Assembly (NCBI GenBank): GCA_020632665.1
Contig: JACKFC010000015.1
Location: 21,734-85,733 of the forward strand
DNA length: 64,000 nucleotides
Reading direction: 5' to 3'
DNA from: Deltaproteobacteria bacterium
GTDB lineage: Bacteria > Myxococcota_A > UBA9042
This document shows, one piece after another, positions 3,284 to 23,970 of the stretch. The notes beneath the pieces are model-generated. The model saw nothing but the letters and a program-made list of their open reading frames with translations. It did not search any database and was not told where the DNA came from. Position numbers and translations under genes: made by a program. Within the stretch, counting starts at the first letter, position 1, and the number at the start of each line of letters is the position of its first letter.

Positions 3284-5044
3284 CTAGGCGCCATCCTCAC
3301 GAGCCAGCGCGTCGACCTCTTGGGTGACGCGAAGACCGATGTACTCCGCCGGTCGAAACGGCGAGAGCCAGACGTCGACGTTGACCTGACCACGGTTCTG
3401 CGTGGTCGGGGTGTTGGTCTCGCTGTCGCAGCGGACCAGGAAGGCCTCCTGCTGCGAAGCGCCCTTCAGATAGCCCTGGCGCCAGAGCTGGTCGAGGAAG
3501 AACGACACGTCGCGCGCGATCGTCTGCCACAACCCCTGGTCGTTGTTCTCGAACACCACCCACTGCAGACCGACGTTCAGCGCGCGGGTGATGGCGACGA
3601 TGGTGCGTCGCACGTTGACGAACTGCAGCGGCCCATCGGCAGAAGCCGTGCGGGCACCCCAGACGCGGATACCGCGCTGGGCGAAGACTTGGCTGCAATT
3701 GATTCCTTCGGCGTTCAACATCGCGATGTCTTGCTGCTGCAAGAACAGTTCCAAGTCGACCACACCTTCGAGCTGTTCGTTGGCCGGGGCGCGATAAACA
3801 CCCTGGCTGTGGTCACAGCGGGCGTAGATGCCGGCGACGTGGCCCGAGGGGGGCACCGCCTTGCCCGTGGTGGAATTCGACGGGATCACGTAGGGATAGT
3901 AGAACGCAGCGAAGCTCGTGTTGAAGAGCCGGCGCCACTGCATCGCCCCGCGCGGGTTCTCGCCGGGCGGGATATCCAAGATCGCGAAGCGATCTTTTTT
4001 CTCCTCGCACTGGGTGACGATGGCCGACTGGACGATCTCGACGTCCTTGGGCGACTTGAAGCCGGCCGACTTCTCCAGGCACCAAGCGAGATCGGGCGCG
4101 ACGAGCAGGTCGATCTCCTCGAGATCGGCGATGCCGGCGAGGCCGTAGCGGTGCCCCGGGCCGAGATCCGCGCCGATGAAGTCTTCGGCGGTGACGGTGT
4201 AGAGGCCGTCCGTTCCGCCGTCGAGCCGCGTCGGCGGGCATTCGACGGGGAAGTTCTCTGGGATCGACGTGACCGCGTCGAGGTTGGCGACCTCGATCAA
4301 GCGCGATCGCTTGTTGATGACGCGCTCGGCGAATTGCGGCGACTGCCGGGCGAGGTTCAGGCCGCGGAAGACTTCGCGCTCGCTGTGGGTCTCGACCACG
4401 AGATCGAAGCCGACCGGCTCGACCAGGGTCGGGGCCATCGACTTGAACTCGGTCTCGAGCGGCTCTCGCTCGTTCCACCACAGCGTCCGCCCGTCGACCC
4501 GGGTCAGCACCCGGTAGGCGGCGTGGTCGTCGTCGTAGATCTTGACCAGGGTGCCACGGGCGAAGCCGTAGGTGCTCTTCACCATCACGCTGCTCTCGCC
4601 GGGGTGGCCGTCGACGGTGATGAAGGTCTGCACCTTGGCTTCAGGTCGCTGGATGTGGACGCGGATCGCGTTGCCCCACATGCCCTCGGAGATGGCCTGG
4701 ACGAGCAGGGTGTTGGCGCCGGCGGCGTCGCGCAGGCGAACCGAGGCGCGGGTGGCGATCTCGTTCCGGCCGCGCTCGAAGAGGTGGCAGATGCGGACGA
4801 CGTAGCACTCGCGTCCGCCGTTGAGGAAGAAGCCGTCGACCGCGGTCTCGAGGTAGCCGCCGACGTCGAGGCTACCGAAGCGCGAGCGGAAATCGGCGAT
4901 GCTGGTGACGCGCACCGGCTCGCTGGTCGGACCGCGCTCGGTCAGGCCGAGGAAGCACGGGACGCCGCTCTGCAGCAATCCGAGTGGGGCGGCGCGCGGC
5001 GCGTCGCGCTCGATGAAGACGCCAGGTGGCCGATTCATCACCAT
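3284..5044 (-). CDS. Contractile tail sheath protein, large paralog (586 aa)
   Basis: Sheath motifs: PGVFIE at the N-terminus, GIYARCDHSQGVYRAPAN, GIRVWGARTAS, FVNVRR, WVVFENNDQGLW, EAFLVRCDSETN. AGGAGGAG lies upstream of the ATG at 5044. Confidence 0.9.
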   Translation of the reverse strand: MVMNRPPGVFIERDAPRAAPLGLLQSGVPCFLGLTERGPTSEPVRVTSIADFRSRFGSLDVGGYLETAVDGFFLNGGRECYVVRICHLFERGRNEIATRASVRLRDAAGANTLLVQAISEGMWGNAIRVHIQRPEAKVQTFITVDGHPGESSVMVKSTYGFARGTLVKIYDDDHAAYRVLTRVDGRTLWWNEREPLETEFKSMAPTLVEPVGFDLVVETHSEREVFRGLNLARQSPQFAERVINKRSRLIEVANLDAVTSIPENFPVECPPTRLDGGTDGLYTVTAEDFIGADLGPGHRYGLAGIADLEEIDLLVAPDLAWCLEKSAGFKSPKDVEIVQSAIVTQCEEKKDRFAILDIPPGENPRGAMQWRRLFNTSFAAFYYPYVIPSNSTTGKAVPPSGHVAGIYARCDHSQGVYRAPANEQLEGVVDLELFLQQQDIAMLNAEGINCSQVFAQRGIRVWGARTASADGPLQFVNVRRTIVAITRALNVGLQWVVFENNDQGLWQTIARDVSFFLDQLWRQGYLKGASQQEAFLVRCDSETNTPTTQNRGQVNVDVWLSPFRPAEYIGLRVTQEVDALAREDGA

Positions 5045-12321: not shown

Positions 12322-13902
12322 ATGGATTCCGCCGACGTTCGCCAGGACCTGCTGTTCTGCCGAGGCTGCGGCAAGCACTACCGCGGCCGCCGCCGACGTT
12401 GCCCGGACGACGGCGCCGAGCTCGAGTGGGTGCGGCCGTTCGCCGGAGAAGAAGGTACGCGGGTCGACGATCGCTACGTCCTCGAGCGCCGGATCGGCAT
12501 CGGCGGGATGGGCACCGTCTGGCGGGCGCGCGACGAACTCACCGGACGCAAGGTCGCGCTGAAGCTGCTCAACGAGCGCTACGCCGCCCACGCCGCCAGC
12601 GCGCAACGCTTCCTGCGCGAGGCCCGGCTGATGCGCAAGGTCAACCATCCCGGCGTGGTGTCGTTGCACCGCTTCGGACCGACCGGCGACGGCGCGCTGC
12701 TCATCGACATGGAATATATCGACGGCGAGACCGTCCGCGAGCGCGTGCTCCGGGTCGGCGGCGGCGTCGACATGGAGATCGGCCTGCGGGTGCTGGACGG
12801 CTTGCTCGCGGCGCTGGCGGCCTGCCACGACGCCGGCCTGGTCCACCTCGACGTCAAGCCCGAGAACGTGATGCTGCACACGGCGGTGCACGAGGGCACG
12901 GTCAAGCTGGTCGACTTTGGCATCGCGCAGCCGATTGGCCCCATCGAGCACGGTGAGGACTTCGTCGTCCTCGGCACGCCGGCGTTCATGAGCCCGGAGC
13001 AGGTCCGCGGCGTCCCGGTCGACGCACGTACCGACCTCTACCTGGTCGGCTGCGTCGCTTTCGAGTTGCTGACGGGTGAGCCGCCCTTCCGCGGCGACAA
13101 GCCCTTCGAGCTCTGCCAGGCGCAGGTGCTGACCGCACCGCCGACGCTCGCCGAGCGGATGCCGGGCAAGAAGCTGCCCGACGGGCTGGATCGTTGGGTC
13201 GCGGCGTTGCTGGAGAAGAACCCGGACAACCGGCCGCGCTCTGCCCGGGTCGCGCGCGAGGCGTTGCGGCAGATTCGGCTGCGCCACCGCGAGGCCTCGC
13301 TGCCGCGTGCGCACTCGCCGCGGCCAGCCTCGATCAGCCGCTTGATGCACGCAGATCCGGCGCGGATCCAGATCGCCAACAGCCAGGGCGCGGTGCGGGC
13401 CCTGCGGGCGCTGGTGGAGGTCCGCCAGATCGGCGACGGCGGCACGCTCTACGGCCCGAAGGCGCTCGAAGAGATGGCGAAGCACCTGCTGGCCGGCGCA
13501 GTGGCGGAGCTGCGCGACTGCGGCGCGACCGTCCTCGGCCCCGAGGGCGCCTTCCTCGACATTCGCATGGCCTGCGACGACGACGAGCGCGGCGCCATCC
13601 ACCACCTGCTCGACATGCTCGGCAAGATGCACGCTGACGTCGGCCGGATCCCCGAACCACGGCTGGAGGTCCGCGCCGCTGTGCTGGCGGATAGCCCGGA
13701 CGCCCCTGGCTTCCTGCAGTCGCGGCCGCAGCACGAGCTCGCCGCGCTGCTGCATATCGGACCCGATACGCACGTGCGCGTCGACGAGCACGTCGCGCGC
13801 TGGGCCGGACGGCGGCCGATCGTGCGCCTCGCGTCATTCCGCGAGGCCGGGATCTCGGGCCTGACGACGCTCTACGCGACGACGCTGCAGCAAGCCGTCT
13901 AG
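12322..13902 (+). CDS. Ser/Thr protein kinase with an N-terminal zinc ribbon and a C-terminal degenerate cyclase-homology-like domain
   Basis: CRGCGKHY...CPDDG. Kinase motifs GIGGMGTVWRA, ALK, HLDVKPENV, DFG, TPAFMSPE. Confidence 0.9.
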   Translation: MDSADVRQDLLFCRGCGKHYRGRRRRCPDDGAELEWVRPFAGEEGTRVDDRYVLERRIGIGGMGTVWRARDELTGRKVALKLLNERYAAHAASAQRFLREARLMRKVNHPGVVSLHRFGPTGDGALLIDMEYIDGETVRERVLRVGGGVDMEIGLRVLDGLLAALAACHDAGLVHLDVKPENVMLHTAVHEGTVKLVDFGIAQPIGPIEHGEDFVVLGTPAFMSPEQVRGVPVDARTDLYLVGCVAFELLTGEPPFRGDKPFELCQAQVLTAPPTLAERMPGKKLPDGLDRWVAALLEKNPDNRPRSARVAREALRQIRLRHREASLPRAHSPRPASISRLMHADPARIQIANSQGAVRALRALVEVRQIGDGGTLYGPKALEEMAKHLLAGAVAELRDCGATVLGPEGAFLDIRMACDDDERGAIHHLLDMLGKMHADVGRIPEPRLEVRAAVLADSPDAPGFLQSRPQHELAALLHIGPDTHVRVDEHVARWAGRRPIVRLASFREAGISGLTTLYATTLQQAV

Positions 13903-13973
13903 GCCTGCGCGCCGCCGCACCGCCGCCGCGCCGCCGCGCCACGCTCGATCACGCTTTGGGCAAAAACGCCGAA

Positions 13974-14007
13974 GGCGCCAACCCCGCGAGGAGATTGGCG
14001 CCTTCTT
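13974..14007 (+). terminator. Hairpin plus T-rich tail downstream of the kinase gene, abutting attL
   Basis: GGCGCCAA (13974-13981) pairs with TTGGCGCC (13995-14002), followed by TTCTT. In the uninterrupted locus it would sit back-to-back with the tRNA-Asp 3' end. Confidence 0.4.
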
Positions 14008-14031
14008 GGCGGAGTGGACGGGACTTGAACC
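14006..14031. repeat. attL core: orphan copy of the tRNA-Asp 3' end
   Basis: TTGGCGGAGTGGACGGGACTTGAACC is identical to 29685-29710. The sequences diverge immediately beyond it. Confidence 0.85.
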
Positions 14032-14138
14032 GCCACACCCGCCAGCGCGGCAGTTGGCGCAAGAGACGAGCATGATCCGCCGCCCCATCTCCAACGCCCC
14101 GCACTTCGACCAGAGCTTCCTGTTCTGGTGGAGGCCGG

Positions 14139-14474
14139 ATGCGGCTCCTTCACATCGTCATCGCCGAGGCCGAGAACGCGCCTTGTCCCGCTGATCCCCT
14201 GGCGGCCGTCGCCGAGGCCGTGCTCGAACTGGTCGACACCGCGAGGGGCGACGAGCAAAGCTTCGCAGCGGCAACGCTGCTCATGCAGCTCCCTGCGGCG
14301 CGTGCCCGCCTTGACGCGATGTGGCAAGACCACGACCGGCGCCGGAAGGTCTGCATCGGCGCTTATCAGCTGATCGTCGCTGCCGACCAGCTCCGCCTCG
14401 CGCATCGACTACCGCCGCGCCAGGCAGCCATGATGGAGGCGCTCCGCGCCGCGGCCGAGCGGGCAGATGGCTAG
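14139..14474 (+). CDS. Hypothetical protein (111 aa)
   Basis: GGAGG 6 nt upstream of the ATG and high GC3. No motif recognised. Confidence 0.55.
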   Translation: MRLLHIVIAEAENAPCPADPLAAVAEAVLELVDTARGDEQSFAAATLLMQLPAARARLDAMWQDHDRRRKVCIGAYQLIVAADQLRLAHRLPPRQAAMMEALRAAAERADG

Positions 14475-14499
14475 CCCGGCCGCCCACGAGCGAAGGGGC

Positions 14500-14935
14500 G
14501 AGCCGCATCCGCCGCATCGGCGATGCGTCCGACCTGCATCCGTCGGATGCAGGCGACATGCTTGCAGTTGCGCATTCACGCATCGCCGGATGCGCGCACC
14601 AGGCACGCATCGAGACGCATCCGCGGGTCGCATTCGCCTGCATGTCACGCCGCATCCGGACGCATTCTGCGCATCGCGGATCGGCCGAAGACGTGATCAC
14701 GGGCGATCGCGCCCGAAATCAGTCCCGCTCGGCCCGCATACCGTCCGCATCAGCCATGCATCCCGGCGATGCGCGGAGGATGCTCGCGGTTGCGCATTCA
14801 CGCATCACCGAATGCACGCAACAAGCCCGCATCGAGACGCATCCGCGGGTCGCATTCGGAGGCTTCGAATGTCGCATCGGTCCGCATCAGCGACGCATCG
14901 ACGGTCTCAAGTTTTTTGCTCTTTCGTTTCAATGG
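14500..14935. promoter_or_regulatory. Iteron array plus AT-rich patch (candidate replication origin or regulatory array)
   Basis: 17 exact CGCATC/GATGCG hexamers and at least 9 one-mismatch variants in about 400 bp. Two 70-bp imperfect direct repeats (14567-14636 and 14789-14858). Palindromes CTGCATCCGTCGGATGCAG and CGCATCGCCGGATGCG. An AT-rich stretch at 14907-14933 lies just upstream of a wHTH gene. Confidence 0.5.
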
Positions 14936-16238: not shown

Positions 16239-17222
16239 ATGTCCAAGTGCAAGGAGTGCGGCCACGAGGCTCGGTCGACGCAAGCGCTCGCAGCTCACGT
16301 CCGGTGGCACTGCCCGGCGAGGAAGGAGCGGCCGGTCGAGCCCGTCGACGAGTACCCGACATTCGTCGCGCCGGTGGAGAAGCCGGCGGCCGGCAGCTCT
16401 GCGACGATGCCGGCGGCGATAGGGGCGCCTCTGGCCGCTGCTCCGGATGCCACCGCGAAGACTCGACCGCCCGAGACGCAACCATCCGAGCCGAACCGCC
16501 CCGAGCCGGAACCGGTGCCGCGGCCACGCCGACTCGGATGGTCGGTCGGAGAGCCAGTCCGGACGCAGAAGCCCCCGGCCGCGCCCGAGACACCGAGCTA
16601 CCTGCAGAGGATGCCCCCGCCACCGGCAACCGGGCTCGCTCCGGCGGCGCCGCGCCGCCTCGAGGACGAGCTCGCTGGCGGCGCCTCCCAAGCCTCACCC
16701 CCGGCCAGTCCGCCGGCGCAAGCCGGACCGTCCGCAGCCGCCTCCGCGGCCGAGACGGCGCCGAACGGAGAGAGCGCGCCGCAGCCCTCGAGCGCGCCAG
16801 GAGCTGCGCCGGCGCAGTCGGCCGTCGCTGCGGCCAAGCTCATCGAGCTCGTGCTCAACAAGATCTTCCCAGAGTCCAAGTTGAGTGCCGACGAGAGCAA
16901 GATTCTTCGCGACGCACTGCCTGACCTGCTGCCGAAGCGAGGCGCAGTGATCATGGTGCTATTCGCGCTGATCGTGCCGCGTGTGGTGATGAAGCCAGCG
17001 GTTCTCGCCAAACTCTCGCGAGTCGCCGATAGGCTTGGTGGCGACGACAAGCCGGCGGCCGTCGAGTCGCCGCATGCGGCCGCCGAACCTGCCGCTGCGC
17101 CTGCGCCGTCGGCTACGCCCGAGTCCACGCCTGCGCCTGCGCCGTCGGCCACGCCGGATCCGGCGCCCCGACGGTCACCTCCGACCGAAGCAGAGATCGC
17201 TCGCTCGTGGGGCGAGGCATGA
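16239..17222 (+). CDS. Zinc-ribbon, Pro/Ala-rich protein with one transmembrane helix
   Basis: GAGGAGG upstream of the ATG at 16239. MSKCKECGHE...HVRWHC. TM helix GAVIMVLFALIVPRVVM. Its stop overlaps the ATPase start as ATGA. Confidence 0.6.
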   Translation: MSKCKECGHEARSTQALAAHVRWHCPARKERPVEPVDEYPTFVAPVEKPAAGSSATMPAAIGAPLAAAPDATAKTRPPETQPSEPNRPEPEPVPRPRRLGWSVGEPVRTQKPPAAPETPSYLQRMPPPPATGLAPAAPRRLEDELAGGASQASPPASPPAQAGPSAAASAAETAPNGESAPQPSSAPGAAPAQSAVAAAKLIELVLNKIFPESKLSADESKILRDALPDLLPKRGAVIMVLFALIVPRVVMKPAVLAKLSRVADRLGGDDKPAAVESPHAAAEPAAAPAPSATPESTPAPAPSATPDPAPRRSPPTEAEIARSWGEA

Positions 17223-17827
17223 GCAACTCGCCCTTCGAGCTCGTGCCATTCGGGACCGTGGCCCACGGCTCGTTGCGAGAGCACGAGCTGCACCTGGTGG
17301 TTGGGATGCCCGGCCACGGCAAGACGGTCTACATGCTCAACTTCATGGCGGAGTGGAGAGCGCGCAATCTCGGCAAGAGCCTCGCGGTCGACCTCGAGGC
17401 GCGCGAGCCGATCGGCGACGGCTACCTCGCGCGCTGGGCCGACGTGTGGTGCCGGGAGCCTCCTGAGGAGCTGCCCGACTGGGTGCGACTGATGGTGTGC
17501 GACGAGGCGCACGAGTACGTCGGCACCCAGGCGGTGAAGTATCCAGGCATGGAAAGCCTGGCGTCGTCGCACCGGCACAAGCCGGTGATGCTCCTATGGG
17601 GGACCCAACGCCCGAACCAGATCAAGCGCGACGTCTGGGCCAAGGCCAAGCGGGTCGTCATCTTCCGCGTCATCGACTCCAGCGACCACAGGCGCCTCCT
17701 CGAACTGCCCGGGCTCGAGCGCAAGCACATCGACGTCATCAGCCGACTCCCGCCGGGCTTTGCGGCGGTCTGGGACCTGCACGAGACCGGCATTTGGCTG
17801 CCATGGGTACCGCAATGGGAGTCGTGA
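17219..17827 (+). CDS. Zot-like P-loop NTPase (candidate virion assembly/packaging ATPase)
   Basis: Walker A GMPGHGKT, Walker B LMVCDEAH, then SSHRHKPVMLLWGTQRPNQIKRDV, which resembles the HRH...TQ motif of Zot/pI ATPases. No TM segment. An alternative GTG start exists at 17207. Confidence 0.8.
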   Translation: MSNSPFELVPFGTVAHGSLREHELHLVVGMPGHGKTVYMLNFMAEWRARNLGKSLAVDLEAREPIGDGYLARWADVWCREPPEELPDWVRLMVCDEAHEYVGTQAVKYPGMESLASSHRHKPVMLLWGTQRPNQIKRDVWAKAKRVVIFRVIDSSDHRRLLELPGLERKHIDVISRLPPGFAAVWDLHETGIWLPWVPQWES

Positions 17828-18054
17828 TTGACTGGCTCGAGCTAGGGGGCGCCTGCAAGCGCATCCGCAAGGAGCGCGGCTGGTCTGCCGACCTGCTCGC
17901 GGCGAAAGCGGGCTGCCATAGGACCACGGTCTACCGCCTCGAGCGTTGCGAGCCAGTCAGCATGGCGTCGCTCCAGCTCGTCTTCGTCGCGCTCGGCATC
18001 GAACTGCGGGTCGACGCGCGAATGTCGGTTTTGAGCGACGTCGCTCCAAACTGA
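17815..18054 (+). CDS. XRE-family HTH protein (79 aa)
   Basis: IRKERGWSADLLAAKAGCHRTTVYRLERCEP...LQLVFVALGIEL. It overlaps the ATPase gene end by 13 nt. Confidence 0.65.
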   Translation: MGVVIDWLELGGACKRIRKERGWSADLLAAKAGCHRTTVYRLERCEPVSMASLQLVFVALGIELRVDARMSVLSDVAPN

Positions 18055-18119
18055 CTTCCAGAGCCGGATCGGCCTCTCCAGCATGAACCCCTGCGGCGCG
18101 ACCGCCAGAGGAGAGCGAC

Positions 18120-19241
18120 ATGTTCGAGAAGCAGATCATGAAGGCCGAGCAGGCGGGCAACTCCGCGATCTACGTCCGGCCGCCCCCGCGCCTGTATGGC
18201 CATCGCGCCGACCGCCTCTGCGTCGAGCTCCGGCTGACGTTCAACAACGGCACTGGTGCTCTTGCCGACCTGACCGAGGCGTTCTTCACCGGCAGCAAGC
18301 TGAAGTGGAACTACCGCGACAATTCGCCCTTCATCGTCGACACGCCGCTGGCGCCCGCCGAGTGGGCCAACCAGATCATGCAGCGACGCTGGGCCGGCGG
18401 GCTGGTGCAGTGCGACGGCGGCATCCAGGTGGCCATCGGCGCCACCGAGACCCACAGCTTCTACCTCGACATCGACCTGGCGATCCCGCTCGCCGAGCGT
18501 CCGGTCGACTTCTCGCAGGACATCTCGGAGCTGGGTGCGCTCACCTTCACGCCCGACATGTCGAACGAGGCCGCGTCGCTCTCGCTCACCAACGTCGAGG
18601 TCATCGTCACGGCGTACGGCAAGCGCACGGACGCCCTGTACAGCGGCTCGCGCCTGCGGATCAGCACGCAGAACAGCCTCGCGCCGATCAGCAGCGACGA
18701 GCTGGCCCTCGAGGGCAAGCTCATCGCGCTCTTCATCTTCACCAAGGACGGGACGGTGCCCATCGCGTCGACCGTGCCGCAGGTCAAGGTCGGCAACCAG
18801 CAGCTGCTCGAGACCGTCGATACCAATACCCTCGACGTCGTCAAGCACCTCGGTGCGTCGCGCTGGACTCTCTTCCCCCAGCGTCCGAGCGACGGCGCCC
18901 CGAGCGCCGACTTCCCCGACGACATCGGCCACCTGGTGATGCCGGAGGAGGGCTTCCGGATCAGTGCGCTGCCGGGCAACAAGGGCGACGTCGTCAACGT
19001 CTCCTACGCCACCGCGCCTTCCGCCAGCACCGGCAAGCACGTCTATGTGCTGGTCGAGCTCGTCCCGCGCCAGACCTGCTTCAAGCGCGAGATCCCGGGC
19101 GCGGTGGAGATGAAGCGCGAGGACTTCGAGCGCTACGTCGAGTACCCGACCATCGGGGCCGGGATCCTCACCGACGAGCTGAAGGACGTCCTGCCGCAGG
19201 TCATCCGGACGCCGCAGGTGCTCCAGCGCATCGGCTGCTGA
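18120..19241 (+). CDS. Hypothetical protein, 373 aa (candidate major capsid protein, unverified)
   Basis: GAGGAG upstream and high GC3. No TM segment. Many short hydrophobic-alternating (beta-like) segments. It is the largest soluble protein of the structural block. Confidence 0.7.
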   Translation: MFEKQIMKAEQAGNSAIYVRPPPRLYGHRADRLCVELRLTFNNGTGALADLTEAFFTGSKLKWNYRDNSPFIVDTPLAPAEWANQIMQRRWAGGLVQCDGGIQVAIGATETHSFYLDIDLAIPLAERPVDFSQDISELGALTFTPDMSNEAASLSLTNVEVIVTAYGKRTDALYSGSRLRISTQNSLAPISSDELALEGKLIALFIFTKDGTVPIASTVPQVKVGNQQLLETVDTNTLDVVKHLGASRWTLFPQRPSDGAPSADFPDDIGHLVMPEEGFRISALPGNKGDVVNVSYATAPSASTGKHVYVLVELVPRQTCFKREIPGAVEMKREDFERYVEYPTIGAGILTDELKDVLPQVIRTPQVLQRIGC

Positions 19242-19265: not shown

Positions 19266-20159
19266 TTGGGCACCCCGTCCGCCAACCAGGTCCTCGAGAT
19301 CCTGACCTCGACGTTCGGCAGCGGTCCGGCGCAGTGCGTCTGGGACCAGGTCAACACTGTGACGCTGGTCCCGGCGCTCATTGCGGCCGTGCCCACTGGC
19401 GGCGCCAGCCTGGTCGGCTACCTCGGCCCGATCGTCACGAGCTGCGGCGTCGGCTCGGTCGAGGAGCTGGCCATGGCGATCGCGAATGCGTTCGTCACTG
19501 GCGGCGGCTCCGGCGAGAAGGCCGAGACAGGTGGCGCAAAGGAGTGCTACTGGACCAAGCCGGGCAAGGACGGCCTGGACGAGTATTGGGACCCGGTCTG
19601 TATCCAACTGACCAAGGCCGGGTGGCGACAAAAGAGCATCGGCGGCTGGGGCAGCAAGACCGTGGTCGACTATGTCACGCCCGCCGGTTGGCAGGTCCAG
19701 TTCCTCTGGGACATGAAGTTGGGGAGCAAGGGCAACGGCCAGACTGGCGTCTTCTACGTCAACAATCCCGACCTGGTCGTCACCGCCGGCGCCGCAGGCC
19801 TGCCGACACAGAGCAATCCGGGGACAGCCCGCTTCGAGAAAGGTGGGGTTGCCAAGGCCATCGAGGTCTTCGGCTCCGCTCCGACGCCCGAGGCGGTGCT
19901 CGCGAAGTACAGCAACAAGAAGCTGCCCCCGGGCGTCCGCAAGATCTGGCCCACCGGGGCCTGTCTCAACACAGCCAACCAGCGCGTCGACTGCCAGACC
20001 GGCGCCATCTTGAGCCCGACGGTCCTCATCCCGCCGACCAAGACCGACGGCGACGACCATGACGACGAAGGTGGCATCCAGGCGTGGCATATCGGCGCCG
20101 TGGTCGCGGTGCTCGCCATCCTCGCCGCACTGGCCTGGTGGCTCTGGGGCGACGCATGA
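19266..20159 (+). CDS. Hypothetical protein with a C-terminal TM anchor (297 aa)
   Basis: TTG start with GGGAGG 8 nt upstream. C-terminal IGAVVAVLAILAALAWWLW. Confidence 0.65.
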   Translation: MGTPSANQVLEILTSTFGSGPAQCVWDQVNTVTLVPALIAAVPTGGASLVGYLGPIVTSCGVGSVEELAMAIANAFVTGGGSGEKAETGGAKECYWTKPGKDGLDEYWDPVCIQLTKAGWRQKSIGGWGSKTVVDYVTPAGWQVQFLWDMKLGSKGNGQTGVFYVNNPDLVVTAGAAGLPTQSNPGTARFEKGGVAKAIEVFGSAPTPEAVLAKYSNKKLPPGVRKIWPTGACLNTANQRVDCQTGAILSPTVLIPPTKTDGDDHDDEGGIQAWHIGAVVAVLAILAALAWWLWGDA

Positions 20160-20710
20160 GCGACAACCCCACCACCTTGCACAACGCTCGTTCGCTCGAG
20201 GTCAAGTACGGCTTCGGCGAGGTCAAGTCCGGCGCCGAGGCCGCGGACTTCAAGTCCGCCATGCGTGAGGCCGGCCTCGAGGACGGGTCGGCCTGCGTGC
20301 TCACCGCCTGGGCGGGCGGCGCTCCGGCCGACAAGAGCTGGATCAACCCCTCTGGCTGGTTCGACAAGCGCGAGACCGCCGAGGACGCCTGCGGGCGCGA
20401 CTTCCCCGACGTCCCCGACGTCGAGGACGCCCTCGAGGAGCTGCGGAGCGCCAGCCCGGCGCTCGCTCAGCTGGTCGAGGTCAAGGCCGGACGGAAGCAG
20501 CGCAGCGAGTACCGCTCGCTGGTCGAAAACGCCAATCAGGACGCAGTGAAGCTCGGCAAGGACGCCATCGTGAAGGTGAAGGAGGTGCTCAAGGACACCG
20601 CCGACACCGCGGGCGACGTCCTCGATGCCGCGCTGCCGTGGAAGCTGGTGATCGCGATCGTCGTGGTCCTGATCGCCATTGGAGCCGTCTGGGTGCTCGC
20701 GAAGAAGTAG
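20156..20710 (+). CDS. Hypothetical protein with a C-terminal TM anchor (184 aa)
   Basis: ATGA overlap with the preceding gene. C-terminal LVIAIVVVLIAIGAVWVLA. Confidence 0.65.
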   Translation: MSDNPTTLHNARSLEVKYGFGEVKSGAEAADFKSAMREAGLEDGSACVLTAWAGGAPADKSWINPSGWFDKRETAEDACGRDFPDVPDVEDALEELRSASPALAQLVEVKAGRKQRSEYRSLVENANQDAVKLGKDAIVKVKEVLKDTADTAGDVLDAALPWKLVIAIVVVLIAIGAVWVLAKK

Positions 20711-20727
20711 CCCAGCAGGAGTGCGTG

Positions 20728-20922
20728 ATGAAGCAGTGGTTTCAAAGCATCGATTGGGTTGCGCTGGGCATCACCGGCGTCGTGGCGGTGGTCGCCGCCG
20801 TGGCCTATGCCTTCATCGTCGACGACGCCGACATGCTGACCGCGATCATCATCGGTCTGCTCGCAGGCGTCGGCACGCCGCTGGCCTACCACACCGCCGA
20901 CCGGGCGATCAGCTTCGCCTAG
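20728..20922 (+). CDS. Small two-TM membrane protein (64 aa)
   Basis: AGGAG upstream of the ATG at 20728. Two hydrophobic helices. Confidence 0.55.
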   Translation: MKQWFQSIDWVALGITGVVAVVAAVAYAFIVDDADMLTAIIIGLLAGVGTPLAYHTADRAISFA

Positions 20923-20925
20923 TCG

Positions 20926-21297
20926 ATGCGCACTTGGCCCGCCGACGCTTGCCCTCCGGTCGCCGCGCGCTACGGCACCTGGCGCCTCGCCGCGAATGGC
21001 TCGAGCTCGACCCCGGTCGAGATCAGTCACAATCGCTGGCGGCTCTCGGTGCAATACGCTTCGACGGTCAGCGCCGGCGACGTCACCGCGTTCACCGGCG
21101 TCGCGCCGGGCGACGGCGGCGGCGGGATGGTGCGGGCCAAGGCCGGCGCGGTCGCGTACGCAGCGGACGGCGGCCAGCTCGAAGGCCAATGGGCGCCGGG
21201 GGTCGAGCGTGAGTTTTCGATCTCGCTTGCAGGCTATGCCGGCGCCGGCGACGTGACCGTGCAGCTCGAGACGTGGAGCGACCTGCCATGGCGCTGA
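20926..21297 (+). CDS. Hypothetical protein (123 aa)
   Basis: Starts 4 nt after the previous stop, with high GC3. No motif recognised. Confidence 0.55.
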   Translation: MRTWPADACPPVAARYGTWRLAANGSSSTPVEISHNRWRLSVQYASTVSAGDVTAFTGVAPGDGGGGMVRAKAGAVAYAADGGQLEGQWAPGVEREFSISLAGYAGAGDVTVQLETWSDLPWR

Positions 21298-21596: not shown

Positions 21597-21952
21597 TGCC
21601 GACCGCCAACCCATGGCCGATCGACGACGCGCGCCACAACGTGTGGCAGCTCTGCCGTGAGCTCGCCAACCTCGAGGGCCACCTCGACGACCCCGGCCGC
21701 AACTGCGTCAAGTGCATCACCAAGCACCTCGCTTGCATCGAGGGCCTGGCGCAAGAGGGCATCGGCCTGGACCACAGCGCCGCGCTGCAGCCGCTGTTCC
21801 GGCAGGTCATCGACGCCGTCGCTTCGGCTGGCTGGGCGCCAGGTGTCCCCCCGGAGGCGGCGCGCGAGCTGATCCGCCAGGCGCGACGTGCGTGTTGCAC
21901 AGCGCAGCTCCGCAACGCCGGCGCTCCCAACATCCTCCCGAGGAGATCCTGA
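21593..21952 (+). CDS. Hypothetical protein (119 aa, Cys-containing)
   Basis: ATGA overlap upstream and TGATG overlap with the muramidase gene downstream. Confidence 0.55.
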   Translation: MMPTANPWPIDDARHNVWQLCRELANLEGHLDDPGRNCVKCITKHLACIEGLAQEGIGLDHSAALQPLFRQVIDAVASAGWAPGVPPEAARELIRQARRACCTAQLRNAGAPNILPRRS

Positions 21953-22803
21953 TGAGCAAGCAACCCGTCGCCGGCTCACTGCTGGGCATCGACGTCTCGC
22001 ATTGGCAAGGCAAGATCGACTGGAACGCCGTCGCCGGCAGCTCCACCCCCTGGGGCGCCGTCGAATTTGCCTACGCCAAGGCGAGCACCGGCAAGGGCGG
22101 TCGCGACAAGCGCTTCGTCGAGAACGCGGTTGCCGCGGCGAAGGCCGGCCTGCCGTTCGGCGCCTACCACTGGCTCAAGCCGGGGCAGTATCTGCCCACC
22201 GAAGAGGCCGCCAACTTCGTCGCAGCGATCCAAGCCGCCCGCGCCGCCGGCGCCAAGGTCGAGCTCGCGCCGATGATCGACCTCGAGGACAAACCGGCGT
22301 CGACGATGGGCAACGATCCGCAGGCCGTCGTCGACTACGCCGACGAATTCGCCAAGGCGGTCAAGGCGGCACTCGGCCAGACGCCGATCTTGTACGTCGG
22401 CAGCAACTACGCGAAGCAGTACATGGGCACCAAGGTGCCGCCGGGCCTGCCGATCTGGGTGCCGCAGTACAACAAGCCGAGCTGCAACTACGATCCCACG
22501 GTCGCGGGCCCGAACAAGCTCAACGCCGCCACCGCGAACTGGGCGGTCTGGCAGTACTGCTCGAAGGGCAAGATCCCGGGCATCAGCGGCGACGTCGACC
22601 TGAACGCGCTGCGCAGCGACCGCATCGACGCCGTCGGCCTCAAGGGTCGACGCGTCGCCCTGCCGTCGACGACCCGCGGCGGCGCAGGCGCAGACGACAA
22701 GAAGAAGGCAGACGACGCCGGCGGCAGCACCACGCTCTACGCCGTCGGGGGCGCGCTGCTGCTGCTGATCATCATCATCATCCTCGCGCTGCAGGCGGGG
22801 TAG
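21952..22803 (+). CDS. GH25 muramidase (lysozyme) with a C-terminal transmembrane anchor
   Basis: GIDVSHWQGKIDWNAV, FAYAKASTGKGG..D..F, GAYHW, DLED. AGGAG upstream. C-terminal LYAVGGALLLLIIIIILALQAG. Confidence 0.9.
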   Translation: MSKQPVAGSLLGIDVSHWQGKIDWNAVAGSSTPWGAVEFAYAKASTGKGGRDKRFVENAVAAAKAGLPFGAYHWLKPGQYLPTEEAANFVAAIQAARAAGAKVELAPMIDLEDKPASTMGNDPQAVVDYADEFAKAVKAALGQTPILYVGSNYAKQYMGTKVPPGLPIWVPQYNKPSCNYDPTVAGPNKLNAATANWAVWQYCSKGKIPGISGDVDLNALRSDRIDAVGLKGRRVALPSTTRGGAGADDKKKADDAGGSTTLYAVGGALLLLIIIIILALQAG

Positions 22804-22812
22804 GAGGTTCCC

Positions 22813-22959
22813 ATGTCCGGCAAGTACTTCGACAAGAAGACCAAGCGCTGGCGCGACCGCGACACCAAGGCCTTCGTCAAGGCACCGCGCGACGGCAAGC
22901 CCACGCCGAGCCGCAGCAGCGGCAAGGGCGGCAAGGGCGGCAAGAAGGGCAAGAAATGA
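22813..22959 (+). CDS. Small Lys/Gly-rich basic protein (48 aa), below the ORF-track size cutoff
   Basis: TAGGAGG 5 nt upstream of the ATG at 22813. MSGKYFDKKTKRWRDRDTKAFVKAPRDGKPTPSRSSGKGGKGGKKGKK. Its stop overlaps the next start as ATGA. Confidence 0.5.
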   Translation: MSGKYFDKKTKRWRDRDTKAFVKAPRDGKPTPSRSSGKGGKGGKKGKK

Positions 22960-23241: not shown

Positions 23242-23592
23242 ATGCTCGAGTTGCTAGCCTGGCTGCTGGCCCACGGGTCGGACATCGGCAAGGCACTTCT
23301 TGCGCTGGCCCTGATCTTCACCCAGCTCGTCGGTGTCGCGAGCGTCGTGGTTCGATGGACCCCGACGCCGACCGACGACAAGTGGTTGGCACCGGTGATG
23401 CGGGTCGCCGAGTGGGTCAGCCTGGCGCTCAAGCGGCCCGCAGTCGTCGGCAAGGGCACCAAGACCGACCAGCTCGACGTGCTGGTGGACGCCCTGCAGC
23501 GCGGCGACACCGGCGAGCTGCAGGCCATCGTCGAAGCCGTGCAGAGCTACAAGCCTCCTGCGCCCCCCCACGACACCCTCCCCGAGCACTGA
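23242..23592 (+). CDS. Membrane protein (116 aa)
   Basis: N-terminal hydrophobic helices and high GC3. Confidence 0.55.
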   Translation: MLELLAWLLAHGSDIGKALLALALIFTQLVGVASVVVRWTPTPTDDKWLAPVMRVAEWVSLALKRPAVVGKGTKTDQLDVLVDALQRGDTGELQAIVEAVQSYKPPAPPHDTLPEH

Positions 23593-23696
23593 TGGACCCG
23601 CGCCTCGAGCTCGCCGTCGTGCTGCTCGTGGCGCTCGGTGTCGGCGCCGGCGCTGGCTTCGCGGCCGTCGTCGGCGAGCTGCTGGGCTGGTGGTGA
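23592..23696 (+). CDS. Very small TM peptide (34 aa)
   Basis: TGATG coupling to the previous gene. MDPRLELAVVLLVALGVGAGAGFAAVVGELLGWW. Confidence 0.4.
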   Translation: MDPRLELAVVLLVALGVGAGAGFAAVVGELLGWW

Positions 23697-23718
23697 GCGC
23701 CTGCAGGAGGCCCGGGCC

Positions 23719-23970
23719 GTGAGCGTTTTCTGGACAGAGAGGGCTGGCAAGCAACTCGCGGCTATTCAGCGCAGTGACGCGAAGCTCGCGGGCCAAGTGA
23801 AGCTCGCCGTCGAGAAGCTCCACGATACTGGACACGGCGACGTGAAGATGCTCAAGGGGGCGCCCGGCGAGTTTCGCGTGCGGGTCCGGAAGTATCGGAT
23901 CAAGGGGTACTGGGACGGCGACGTGCTCGTGGTCCTCGAGGTCGGCCACCGGAGCTCGATCTACCGCTAG
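23719..23970 (+). CDS. RelE/ParE-family toxin
   Basis: GTG at 23719 with GGAGG 8 nt upstream. The pattern ...KLHDTGHGDVKMLKGAPGEFRVRVRKYRIKGYWDGDVLVVLEVGHRSSIY fits the RelE/ParE fold signature. Confidence 0.75.
   Translation: MSVFWTERAGKQLAAIQRSDAKLAGQVKLAVEKLHDTGHGDVKMLKGAPGEFRVRVRKYRIKGYWDGDVLVVLEVGHRSSIYR

What the first reader, a model, noticed from the sequence alone, without database searches (positions are those of the whole stretch)
18120..19241. 373-aa soluble protein as candidate major capsid protein
This is the largest non-membrane ORF of the block. It lies just downstream of the ATPase and HTH genes, has a strong GAGGAG ribosome-binding site, and contains many short alternating hydrophobic stretches (VELRLTF, SFYLDIDLAI, LSLTNVEVIVTAY, LIALFIFT, VVNVSYAT, HVYVLVELV) suggestive of an all-beta protein. 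Its size is in the range of double jelly-roll capsid proteins. No motif allowed me to assign it.
Basis: inference. Interest (0 to 1): 0.6.

Follow-up and report, generated by a model that had tools for sequence, protein, structure and literature searches.

The report
Jelly-roll capsid protein of myxobacterial provirus
The 373-residue protein is very probably the shell-building (double jelly-roll) capsid protein of a small, tail-less, probably membrane-lined virus that lies integrated in the chromosome of an uncultured myxobacterium; it is a previously unannotated sequence family of a well-known type of virus.

Summary
The ORF at 18120-19241 (+) is real: 373 aa, GC3 0.95, GAGGAG ribosome-binding site 6 nt upstream. 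An AlphaFold2 model built on a 20-sequence family alignment (pLDDT 88.6, pTM 0.88) matches, over its full length, only double jelly-roll (DJR) major capsid proteins: PRD1 P3 (Foldseek E 2.5e-11), PR772, STIV, PBCV-1, PM2, FLiP, and the GC1 and Wip1 tectivirus capsid proteins. The ESM Atlas gives the same neighbours from its own model.

The gene sits in a 15.7-kb element integrated at tRNA-Asp, bounded by an exact 26-bp repeat and carrying a tyrosine integrase. Just upstream is a 202-aa FtsK/HerA-type ATPase whose profile matches HerA (3e-7) and the STIV B204 packaging NTPase (2.6e-4). Downstream lie several small membrane proteins, a conserved 123-aa jelly-roll-like protein and a GH25 lysin. 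No terminase, portal or tail domain was found.

The capsid family is tiny (19 clusters among 1.8 billion representatives), named only 'hypothetical protein', and invisible to Pfam, PHROGs, NCBIfam, PDB sequences and 50,697 phage genomes. Among genomes searched it occurs only in one Myxococcota family. By sequence, the scan has not met it on other DNA. It is a new member of a known kind, of moderate interest.

The parts
18120..19241 (+). [quoted passage not shown]
   Evidence: GC3 0.95. AF2 pLDDT 88.6, pTM 0.88. Foldseek PRD1 P3 E 2.5e-11, STIV 1e-9, PM2 3.8e-7, FLiP 5.5e-7. BFVD GC1 MCP 3.9e-12. ESM Atlas TM 0.63 to a P3 capsid cluster.
18108..18113 (+). GAGGAG ribosome-binding site, 6 nt before the ATG
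   Evidence: Read directly from the sequence.
17219..17827 (+). FtsK/HerA-superfamily P-loop ATPase, 202 aa; candidate genome-packaging ATPase
   Evidence: Walker A and Walker B motifs and a TQRP motif are invariant in the 4-sequence alignment. Profile vs PDB sequences: HerA 3e-7, STIV B204 2.6e-4, STIV2 B204 4.7e-3. PHROG 'terminase large subunit' 2.7e-11 and Zot-like 1e-5. Collinear BLASTP match to PRD1 P9, E 1e-3. Immediately upstream of the capsid gene in 4 of 4 loci.
17815..18054 (+). Small XRE-type HTH protein (about 79 aa; start approximate) between the ATPase and capsid genes
   Evidence: Pfam HTH_3 9e-7. A positional homolog is present in all four loci.
19266..20159 (+). 297-aa protein with a C-terminal membrane helix, function unknown (possible vertex, spike or membrane-linking protein)
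   Evidence: GC3 0.89. TM segment at residues 276-294. No family match. A protein of similar size (266-301 aa) follows the capsid gene in the relatives, but without detectable similarity.
20084..20710 (+). Conserved protein with a C-terminal membrane anchor (real start probably the internal ATG near 20156)
   Evidence: TM segment at residues 188-206. 35-38% identical homologs in the G010 and G022 loci.
20638..20922 (+). Small membrane protein (start uncertain)
   Evidence: TM segment. GC3 0.74.
20926..21297 (+). Conserved 123-aa all-beta protein with a jelly-roll-like sandwich fold; candidate vertex (penton) protein, by inference only
   Evidence: AF2 pLDDT 86.2, about 8 strands. Foldseek best E only 1e-3, to the nucleoplasmin pentamer core, YPM, GOLD, CBM and luteovirus coat protein. 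32% identical homolog in the G022 locus. No similarity to PRD1 P31.
21712..22803 (+). GH25 muramidase with a C-terminal membrane helix (real start probably the internal ATG at 21952)
   Evidence: Pfam Glyco_hydro_25 1e-33. TM segment at residues 342-360.
23242..23592 (+). 116-aa membrane protein
   Evidence: TM segment at residues 19-37. Weak match to phrog_9685, 1e-4.
28510..29727 (+). Tyrosine integrase
   Evidence: Pfam Phage_integrase 1.2e-11. 41% identical integrase in the G022 locus.
14006..14031 (.). Left att core (exact 26-bp direct repeat)
   Evidence: the repeat finder family D20. A perfect metagenome contig bridges the host-element junction at 13000-14635.
29685..29710 (.). Right att core, which is the 3' end of tRNA-Asp(GTC) at 29686-29762 (-)

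Best explanation
The 373-aa protein is the major capsid protein of a 15.7-kb temperate, tail-less virus of the PRD1/STIV/PM2 type (Varidnaviria, DJR lineage) integrated at tRNA-Asp of an uncultured Myxococcota bacterium.

Shown here: the chain is predicted with high confidence to fold into two tandem jelly-roll beta-barrels that superpose on known DJR capsid proteins. It is encoded directly after an FtsK/HerA-type ATPase related to the STIV B204 packaging NTPase. It is followed by several small membrane proteins, a conserved small jelly-roll-like protein and a muramidase. The whole lies inside an att-bounded element with an integrase.

Inferred by analogy with PRD1, STIV and PM2: the protein forms trimers with pseudo-hexagonal outline that tile an icosahedral shell around a lipid vesicle studded with the virus's small membrane proteins. 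Another protein, perhaps the 123-aa one, closes the fivefold vertices. The ATPase at one vertex pumps the genome into the preformed particle. The anchored GH25 enzyme opens the cell wall at entry or exit.
For: Real gene: GC3 0.95. Family conserved full-length across 20 clusters at 17-57% identity with no breaks. AF2 model pLDDT 88.6, pTM 0.88. Foldseek PDB: the top 50 ranks shown are all DJR capsid proteins, led by PRD1 P3 (E 2.5e-11, TM 0.53, 388 aligned columns), then PR772, STIV, PBCV-1, Sputnik, mavirus, PM2 and FLiP. BFVD: tectivirus GC1 MCP 3.9e-12, STIV coat, Wip1 MCP. ESM Atlas independent model: TM 0.63 to a cluster in which 62% of members carry the Pfam P3_N and P3_C families; also Sputnik, NCLDV and PM2 P2 clusters. 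ATPase profile: HerA 3e-7, STIV B204 2.6e-4. ATPase-capsid adjacency in 4 of 4 loci. Six proteins with TM helices in the block. GH25 lysin and integrase. att repeat and tRNA-Asp. No Pfam terminase, portal, HK97 or tail domain in the 21 element ORFs scanned.
Confidence: 0.88

Rival explanations
1. The gene is a capsid protein by descent, but the element is a cryptic or defective provirus, or a domesticated remnant, that no longer makes virions. The protein would then be idle or exapted.
For: Element contigs have the same depth as host-flank contigs, and no credible excision or circle junction was seen. Only two short RNA-library contigs fall on the element, and none of the listed ones lies on the capsid gene.
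Against: The att repeats are exact. The integrase, ATPase, capsid and lysin frames are intact with strong codon bias. The same core module is kept in three related genomes at 24-40% identity, which implies long-term purifying selection. Quiescence in a bulk metagenome is what one expects of a lysogen.
Confidence: 0.12
2. It is a non-capsid protein with a double jelly-roll or similar beta-sandwich fold, such as a cellular DJR homolog of the DUF2961 type (Krupovic et al. 2022, PMC8812541), a lectin-like adhesin, or a minor virion protein.
For: There is no sequence similarity to capsid families. Jelly-roll sandwiches are common in carbohydrate-binding and other proteins.
Against: The top structural matches are full-length DJR capsid proteins and not enzymes or CBMs. 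No Pfam hit at all, including DUF2961. The gene lies in a mobile element right after a B204/HerA-like ATPase in every locus. No other ORF of the element is a plausible major capsid protein.
Confidence: 0.05
3. The fold assignment is an artefact of a shallow alignment: AlphaFold over-confident on 20 sequences.
For: Only 20 sequences were available. The ESM Atlas single-sequence model is of low confidence (pLDDT 0.60).
Against: All five AF2 models agree (pLDDT 86.6-88.6). The lower-confidence ESM model, made by a different method, finds the same capsid clusters. The beta-rich pattern is visible in the sequence itself.
Confidence: 0.03

Closest known systems
PRD1 P3 and other tectivirus major capsid proteins (PRD1, PR772, GC1, Wip1; Tectiviridae, Tectiliviricetes)
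   Same: Best structural matches. Similar length (373 vs 395 aa). Same local gene order of packaging ATPase, small gene(s), capsid protein, small membrane proteins. Similar genome size (15.7 vs 14.9 kb). A cell-wall hydrolase is encoded in both.
   Different: 10-13% identity, with no profile-level similarity. No protein-primed family-B DNA polymerase or terminal protein was found. The element is temperate, with a tyrosine integrase and att sites at a tRNA, and probably uses a winged-helix initiator. An XRE HTH gene sits between the ATPase and the capsid gene. The host is Myxococcota.
STIV/STIV2 (Turriviridae) capsid protein B345 and packaging NTPase B204
   Same: The capsid protein matches structurally (E 1e-9). 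The ATPase family profile matches B204 by sequence, and the proteins are the same size, about 202-212 aa. STIV-group elements often carry tyrosine integrases (Yutin et al. 2018, PMC5894146).
   Different: Archaeal versus bacterial host. ATPase-capsid juxtaposition is not conserved in the STIV group (PMC5894146). No capsid sequence similarity.
PM2-group (Corticoviridae, Autolykiviridae, Vinavirales) proviruses
   Same: DJR capsid protein, internal-membrane architecture, frequent occurrence as integrated proviruses of Gram-negative bacteria (PMC5894146). The structural match to PM2 P2 is E 3.8e-7.
   Different: PM2 P2 is much shorter (269 aa) and matches less well. Gene order and replication modules differ. 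No sequence similarity.
The six DJR groups of Yutin et al. 2018 (Odin, PM2, STIV, Bam35-Toil, PRD1, FLiP)
   Same: Same hallmark pair of DJR capsid protein and packaging ATPase, with interchangeable replication, integration and lysis modules.
   Different: I could not place the family in any group by sequence. None of the profile libraries, which include these viruses' families, matches it.

Membership tests
Double jelly-roll major capsid proteins (Bamfordvirae) | Two tandem eight-stranded jelly-roll beta-barrels in one polypeptide | tested here: met
   AF2 model pLDDT 88.6. Full-length Foldseek alignments to PRD1 P3, STIV, PBCV-1, PM2 and FLiP at probability 1.00. ESM Atlas agrees. This rests on predicted, not solved, structure.
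Double jelly-roll major capsid proteins (Bamfordvirae) | Assembles into trimers with pseudo-hexagonal symmetry that tile an icosahedral capsid | not testable with these tools
   No multimer prediction or experiment was available.
Double jelly-roll major capsid proteins (Bamfordvirae) | Co-encoded with an FtsK/HerA-superfamily (A32/P9/B204-type) packaging ATPase | tested here: met
   Adjacent ATPase in 4 of 4 loci. Profile hits HerA 3e-7 and STIV B204 2.6e-4. Collinear with PRD1 P9.
Double jelly-roll major capsid proteins (Bamfordvirae) | Sequence match to a curated capsid family (Pfam P3_N/P3_C, P2_N/P2_C, Capsid_NCLDV; PHROG capsid families) | tested here: not met
   Zero hits even at E 10 for P0001, and none at E 0.1 for the 20 family members scanned one by one. 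hhalign to P3 gives probability 7%.
Double jelly-roll major capsid proteins (Bamfordvirae) | Major component of purified virions | not testable with these tools
   The host is uncultured (a metagenome-assembled genome). No particles are available.
Tectiviridae | Linear genome with inverted terminal repeats, replicated by a protein-primed family-B DNA polymerase with a terminal protein | tested here: not met
   No polymerase domain in the 21 element ORFs scanned. The element is bounded by direct att repeats and carries a tyrosine integrase.
Single jelly-roll penton proteins (PRD1 P31-like), for the 123-aa protein | Eight-stranded jelly roll of about 120-130 aa that forms pentamers at the vertices | tested here: inconclusive
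   The all-beta model has pLDDT 86. Only weak matches (E 1e-3 or weaker) to generic jelly-roll-like sandwiches, and P31 is not among them. No sequence similarity to P31. Pentamer formation is untestable here.
Cellular DJR homologs (DUF2961-type) | Match to the DUF2961 family and a chromosomal, non-mobile context | tested here: not met
   No Pfam hit of any kind. The gene lies inside an att-bounded integrated element.

The most novel reading that the evidence does not exclude
This element and its relatives found a new family-level lineage of temperate, membrane-containing DJR viruses specific to Myxococcota. It would be the first tail-less virus type tied to that phylum in the literature I could search. 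Its own features would include a capsid-protein sequence family unrelated by sequence to all described ones, an XRE regulator fixed between the packaging ATPase and capsid genes, and a conserved C-terminal cysteine on the capsid protein that might cross-link capsomers.
Probability: 0.55. Interest if true: 0.5.

Novelty: new member of a known kind. Interest (0 to 1): 0.4.

Why it matters
Known myxobacterial viruses are almost all tailed phages. A 2026 survey classified 98.4% of 790 myxobacterial vOTUs as Caudoviricetes (bioRxiv 10.64898/2026.09.14.751636). This locus shows that the PRD1-type lineage also reaches Myxococcota, as a temperate 15.7-kb provirus found in wastewater and activated-sludge communities.

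It adds a capsid-protein family that every sequence-profile library I tried misses. Tools relying on such profiles would therefore probably overlook elements like it, and the family alignment (A1) can serve as a new search profile. Beyond that, the architecture is the expected one for this virus kind, so the finding extends a known pattern rather than changing it.

Tried and rejected
- **Sequence searches, all empty.** For the capsid protein: Pfam, PHROGs, NCBIfam, PDB sequences as a single sequence and as a profile, and tblastn against 50,697 phage records. The ATPase also has no tblastn hit in the phages.
- **The search for related loci.** The single protein found nothing in viral contigs or genome contigs.
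- **hhalign against PRD1.** The capsid family vs P3 and the 123-aa family vs P31 were not significant. The ATPase profile vs P9 was also not significant, although the pairwise BLASTP was collinear at E 1e-3.
- **Penton assignment.** Foldseek and the ESM Atlas give only generic beta-sandwich neighbours for the 123-aa protein, so this stays an inference.
- **Excision and expression from public runs.** All runs were Logan contigs. The listed 'joints' have 21-24-nt sides in GC-rich DNA and I do not trust them. No junction joining the two att cores (14006-14031 and 29685-29710) was among those shown. Parts of the element without RNA cover prove nothing.
- **Tools unavailable.** The VIA-align libraries pdb_via and pdb_via_wide were not on the machine.
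A PHROG Zot-like hit exists (1e-5). The stronger and more specific matches are to HerA and B204 and to a PHROG named 'terminase large subunit', so I read it as a packaging ATPase.

Full report
**Observation.** In DNA of 67-70% G+C long chance ORFs abound, so I tested coding quality. G+C at codon positions 1/2/3 is 0.63/0.43/0.95, the sharpest coding signature in the block. ATG 18120 is the first start in its stop-to-stop frame and is preceded by GAGGAG at 18108-18113. No hydrophobic segment reaches a transmembrane threshold.

**Setting.** The gene lies in an integrated element. An exact 26-bp direct repeat occurs at 14006-14031 and 29685-29710, and the right copy is the 3' end of tRNA-Asp(GTC) at 29686-29762. 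A tyrosine integrase (28510-29727, Pfam 1.2e-11) abuts it. Outside the repeats are host genes: purine phosphoribosyltransferase-like and SurE-like ORFs read, a Ser/Thr kinase (Pfam) and a MoeA-like ORF.

Inside the element, nearly all genes are on the + strand, in this order:
- a winged-helix protein that weakly resembles a replication initiator
- a zinc-ribbon/Pro-rich protein
- a 202-aa P-loop ATPase (17219-17827)
- a 79-aa XRE HTH protein (about 17815-18054; Pfam HTH_3, 9e-7)
- the 373-aa protein
- a 297-aa protein with a C-terminal membrane helix
- further proteins with single membrane helices
- a conserved 123-aa beta protein
- a GH25 muramidase with a C-terminal helix (Pfam 1e-33)
- a ParE-like toxin, HTH regulators and several unknowns

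None of the 21 ORFs scanned has a terminase, portal, HK97-capsid or tail domain.

**Relatives.** The word-indexed search of 5.8 billion proteins found three relatives. The exhaustive HMMER scan of 1.84 billion cluster representatives found 19 clusters at E<=1e-3, nearly all 354-416 aa (one is a 182-aa fragment), at 24-57% identity over the matched stretches (the fragment 88%). They align end to end (A1). Every member that carries a source name is called 'hypothetical protein'.

Among whole genomes, the family profile matched 4 of 401 sampled genomes of the phylum, all in one family. Two of these are records titled 'Myxococcales bacterium' MAGs, so the host lineage is Myxococcota. The window's own genome has a single copy.

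**Fold.** AlphaFold2 on A1 gave a confident model (mean pLDDT 88.6, pTM 0.88, five models within 2 points). It is mostly beta, with strand groups in each half and a helix at a comparable position in each (77-89 and 237-243).
- **Foldseek against the PDB** returned only DJR major capsid proteins among the top 50 ranks shown: PRD1 P3 (E 2.5e-11, TM 0.53, 388 aligned columns), PR772, STIV (1e-9), PBCV-1 Vp54, Sputnik, mavirus, PM2 P2 (3.8e-7), FLiP (5.5e-7), ASFV p72 and faustovirus.
- **Foldseek against BFVD** gave the capsid protein of the tectivirus GC1 (3.9e-12), an unnamed 373-aa viral protein, the STIV coat and the Wip1 capsid protein.
- **The ESM Atlas**, using its own lower-confidence model, lists a cluster in which 62% of members carry the Pfam P3_N and P3_C families (TM 0.63). 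It also lists Sputnik, NCLDV and PM2-P2 capsid clusters. Its feature search (score 0.96) points to viral clusters in which about 10-12% of members carry P2 or P3 capsid domains.

Two prediction methods and three libraries therefore agree. Sequence identity to these proteins is 7-13%. No sequence method sees the relationship.

**The partner ATPase.** DJR viruses typically pair the capsid protein with an FtsK/HerA-superfamily packaging ATPase (Yutin et al. 2018, PMC5894146). The 202-aa ATPase has Walker A and B motifs and a TQRP motif that are invariant among the four orthologs.
- Its profile matches HerA hexameric ATPases (3e-7 to 4e-5). It also matches the solved genome-packaging NTPase B204 of STIV (2.6e-4) and STIV2 (4.7e-3), proteins of 210-212 aa aligned over two thirds of their length.
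- PHROGs gives a family named 'terminase large subunit' (2.7e-11) and a Zot-like family (1e-5).
- BLASTP to PRD1 P9 aligns residues 113-164 of both proteins (E 1e-3 for the single comparison). The profile version was not significant.
- The ATPase gene lies directly upstream of the capsid gene, with the small HTH gene between them, in all four genomes. PRD1 has the same order: ATPase, small genes, capsid protein, small membrane proteins.

**Other virion candidates.** The core shared with the distant relatives is the ATPase, the capsid protein, a C-terminally anchored 208-aa protein, the 123-aa protein, an HTH protein and the integrase.

The 123-aa protein folds confidently (pLDDT 86.2) into an all-beta sandwich of about eight main strands. 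Its best PDB matches are weak (E 1e-3 or weaker) and non-specific: the nucleoplasmin/nucleophosmin pentamer core, YPM, GOLD domains, CBMs and a luteovirus coat protein. The Atlas gives generic sandwiches, and there is no similarity to PRD1 P31. Its size, fold class and conservation make it a reasonable penton candidate, but that is inference. An internal membrane is inferred from the six proteins with membrane helices in the block.

**State of the element.** Public runs holding the element are activated-sludge and wastewater metagenomes from four studies. In the probable source sample:
- A perfect 2.5-kb contig bridges the left junction, so the element is integrated there.
- Element contigs (depth 19-27) and flank contigs (22-23) have equal depth.
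- A second study holds both the element and its flank at depth of about 4.
- No credible excision junction was shown.
- The RNA library has only two short perfect contigs on the element, in the ATPase gene and just upstream of the lysin gene. DNA carry-over could explain them.

The data fit a quiescent lysogen and say nothing about inducibility.

**Mechanism.**
- Shown: the fold, the family, the context and the integration.
- Inferred from the behaviour of PRD1, STIV and PM2 (established knowledge): trimeric pseudo-hexameric capsomers forming an icosahedral shell over a protein-rich lipid vesicle; pentons at the vertices; ATPase-driven packaging through a unique vertex; a muramidase acting at entry or lysis; lysogeny by site-specific recombination at tRNA-Asp.

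**Comparison and novelty.** Structurally the protein is nearest to tectivirus P3-type capsid proteins. The element is not a tectivirus, because it has no protein-primed polymerase or terminal protein and instead integrates through a tyrosine recombinase. The ATPase is nearest by sequence to STIV B204. I could not assign the family to any of the six published DJR groups by sequence.

In the searchable literature I found no DJR virus tied to Myxococcota. A 2026 preprint classifies 98.4% of myxobacterial vOTUs as Caudoviricetes. Earlier notes of this scan describe other, unrelated tail-less jelly-roll viruses, some with probable Myxococcota hosts. None resembles this protein by sequence, and I did not test those notes.

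Published work already expects a wide spread of divergent DJR proviruses, so this is a new member (probably family-level) of a known kind. Its interest is moderate.

Noticed in passing
window 17815-18054 (+); L004 about 4360-4590; L005 8457-8687; L012 10120-10344 (-): A small XRE-type HTH gene (Pfam HTH_3/HTH_31) is fixed between the packaging ATPase and the capsid gene in all four related loci. A regulator embedded in the morphogenetic operon is not part of the PRD1 layout.
   Followed up: partly
C-terminus of the capsid family (alignment A1, columns 501-527; window about 19230-19238): 12 of 20 family members have a cysteine within their last few residues (one has a Cys-rich tail). The 123-aa protein family has an invariant Cys9. 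This might mean disulfide or metal links between capsid parts. Untested.
   Followed up: no
window 22813-22959 (+); L005 15469-15636 (+): A 48-aa extremely basic Lys/Arg/Gly-rich ORF with GC3 0.96 follows the lysin. The G022 element has a 55-aa basic ORF with GC3 0.95. It is a candidate DNA-condensing or membrane-associated protein.
   Followed up: no
window 25657-25931 and 14525-14887: A 105-bp tandem repeat (about 2.6 units, 89-91% identical) is rich in a CGCATC-like motif. A 141-nt imperfect direct repeat lies upstream of the winged-helix gene. Another follow-up report of this scan treats these as candidate iterons.
   Followed up: no
window 23638-23970 (+) and 23971-24141 (-): A ParE/RelE-type toxin domain (Pfam ParE_toxin, 7.7e-6) lies inside the element, with a convergent 56-aa basic ORF abutting its stop.
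   Followed up: no
window 17536-17712 and 21740-21951: A wastewater metatranscriptome (run X7) holds perfect short contigs on the ATPase gene and just upstream of the lysin gene, as well as on the host gene at 30110-30842. This hints at transcription but does not prove it, because DNA may be present in the library.
   Followed up: partly
window 19007-19012: A co-occurring variant of the capsid gene (P0002, 99% identical, on a 1774-nt contig) exists in the same activated-sludge sample. It has clustered substitutions at 19007, 19009 and 19012, so at least two alleles of the provirus coexist there.
   Followed up: no
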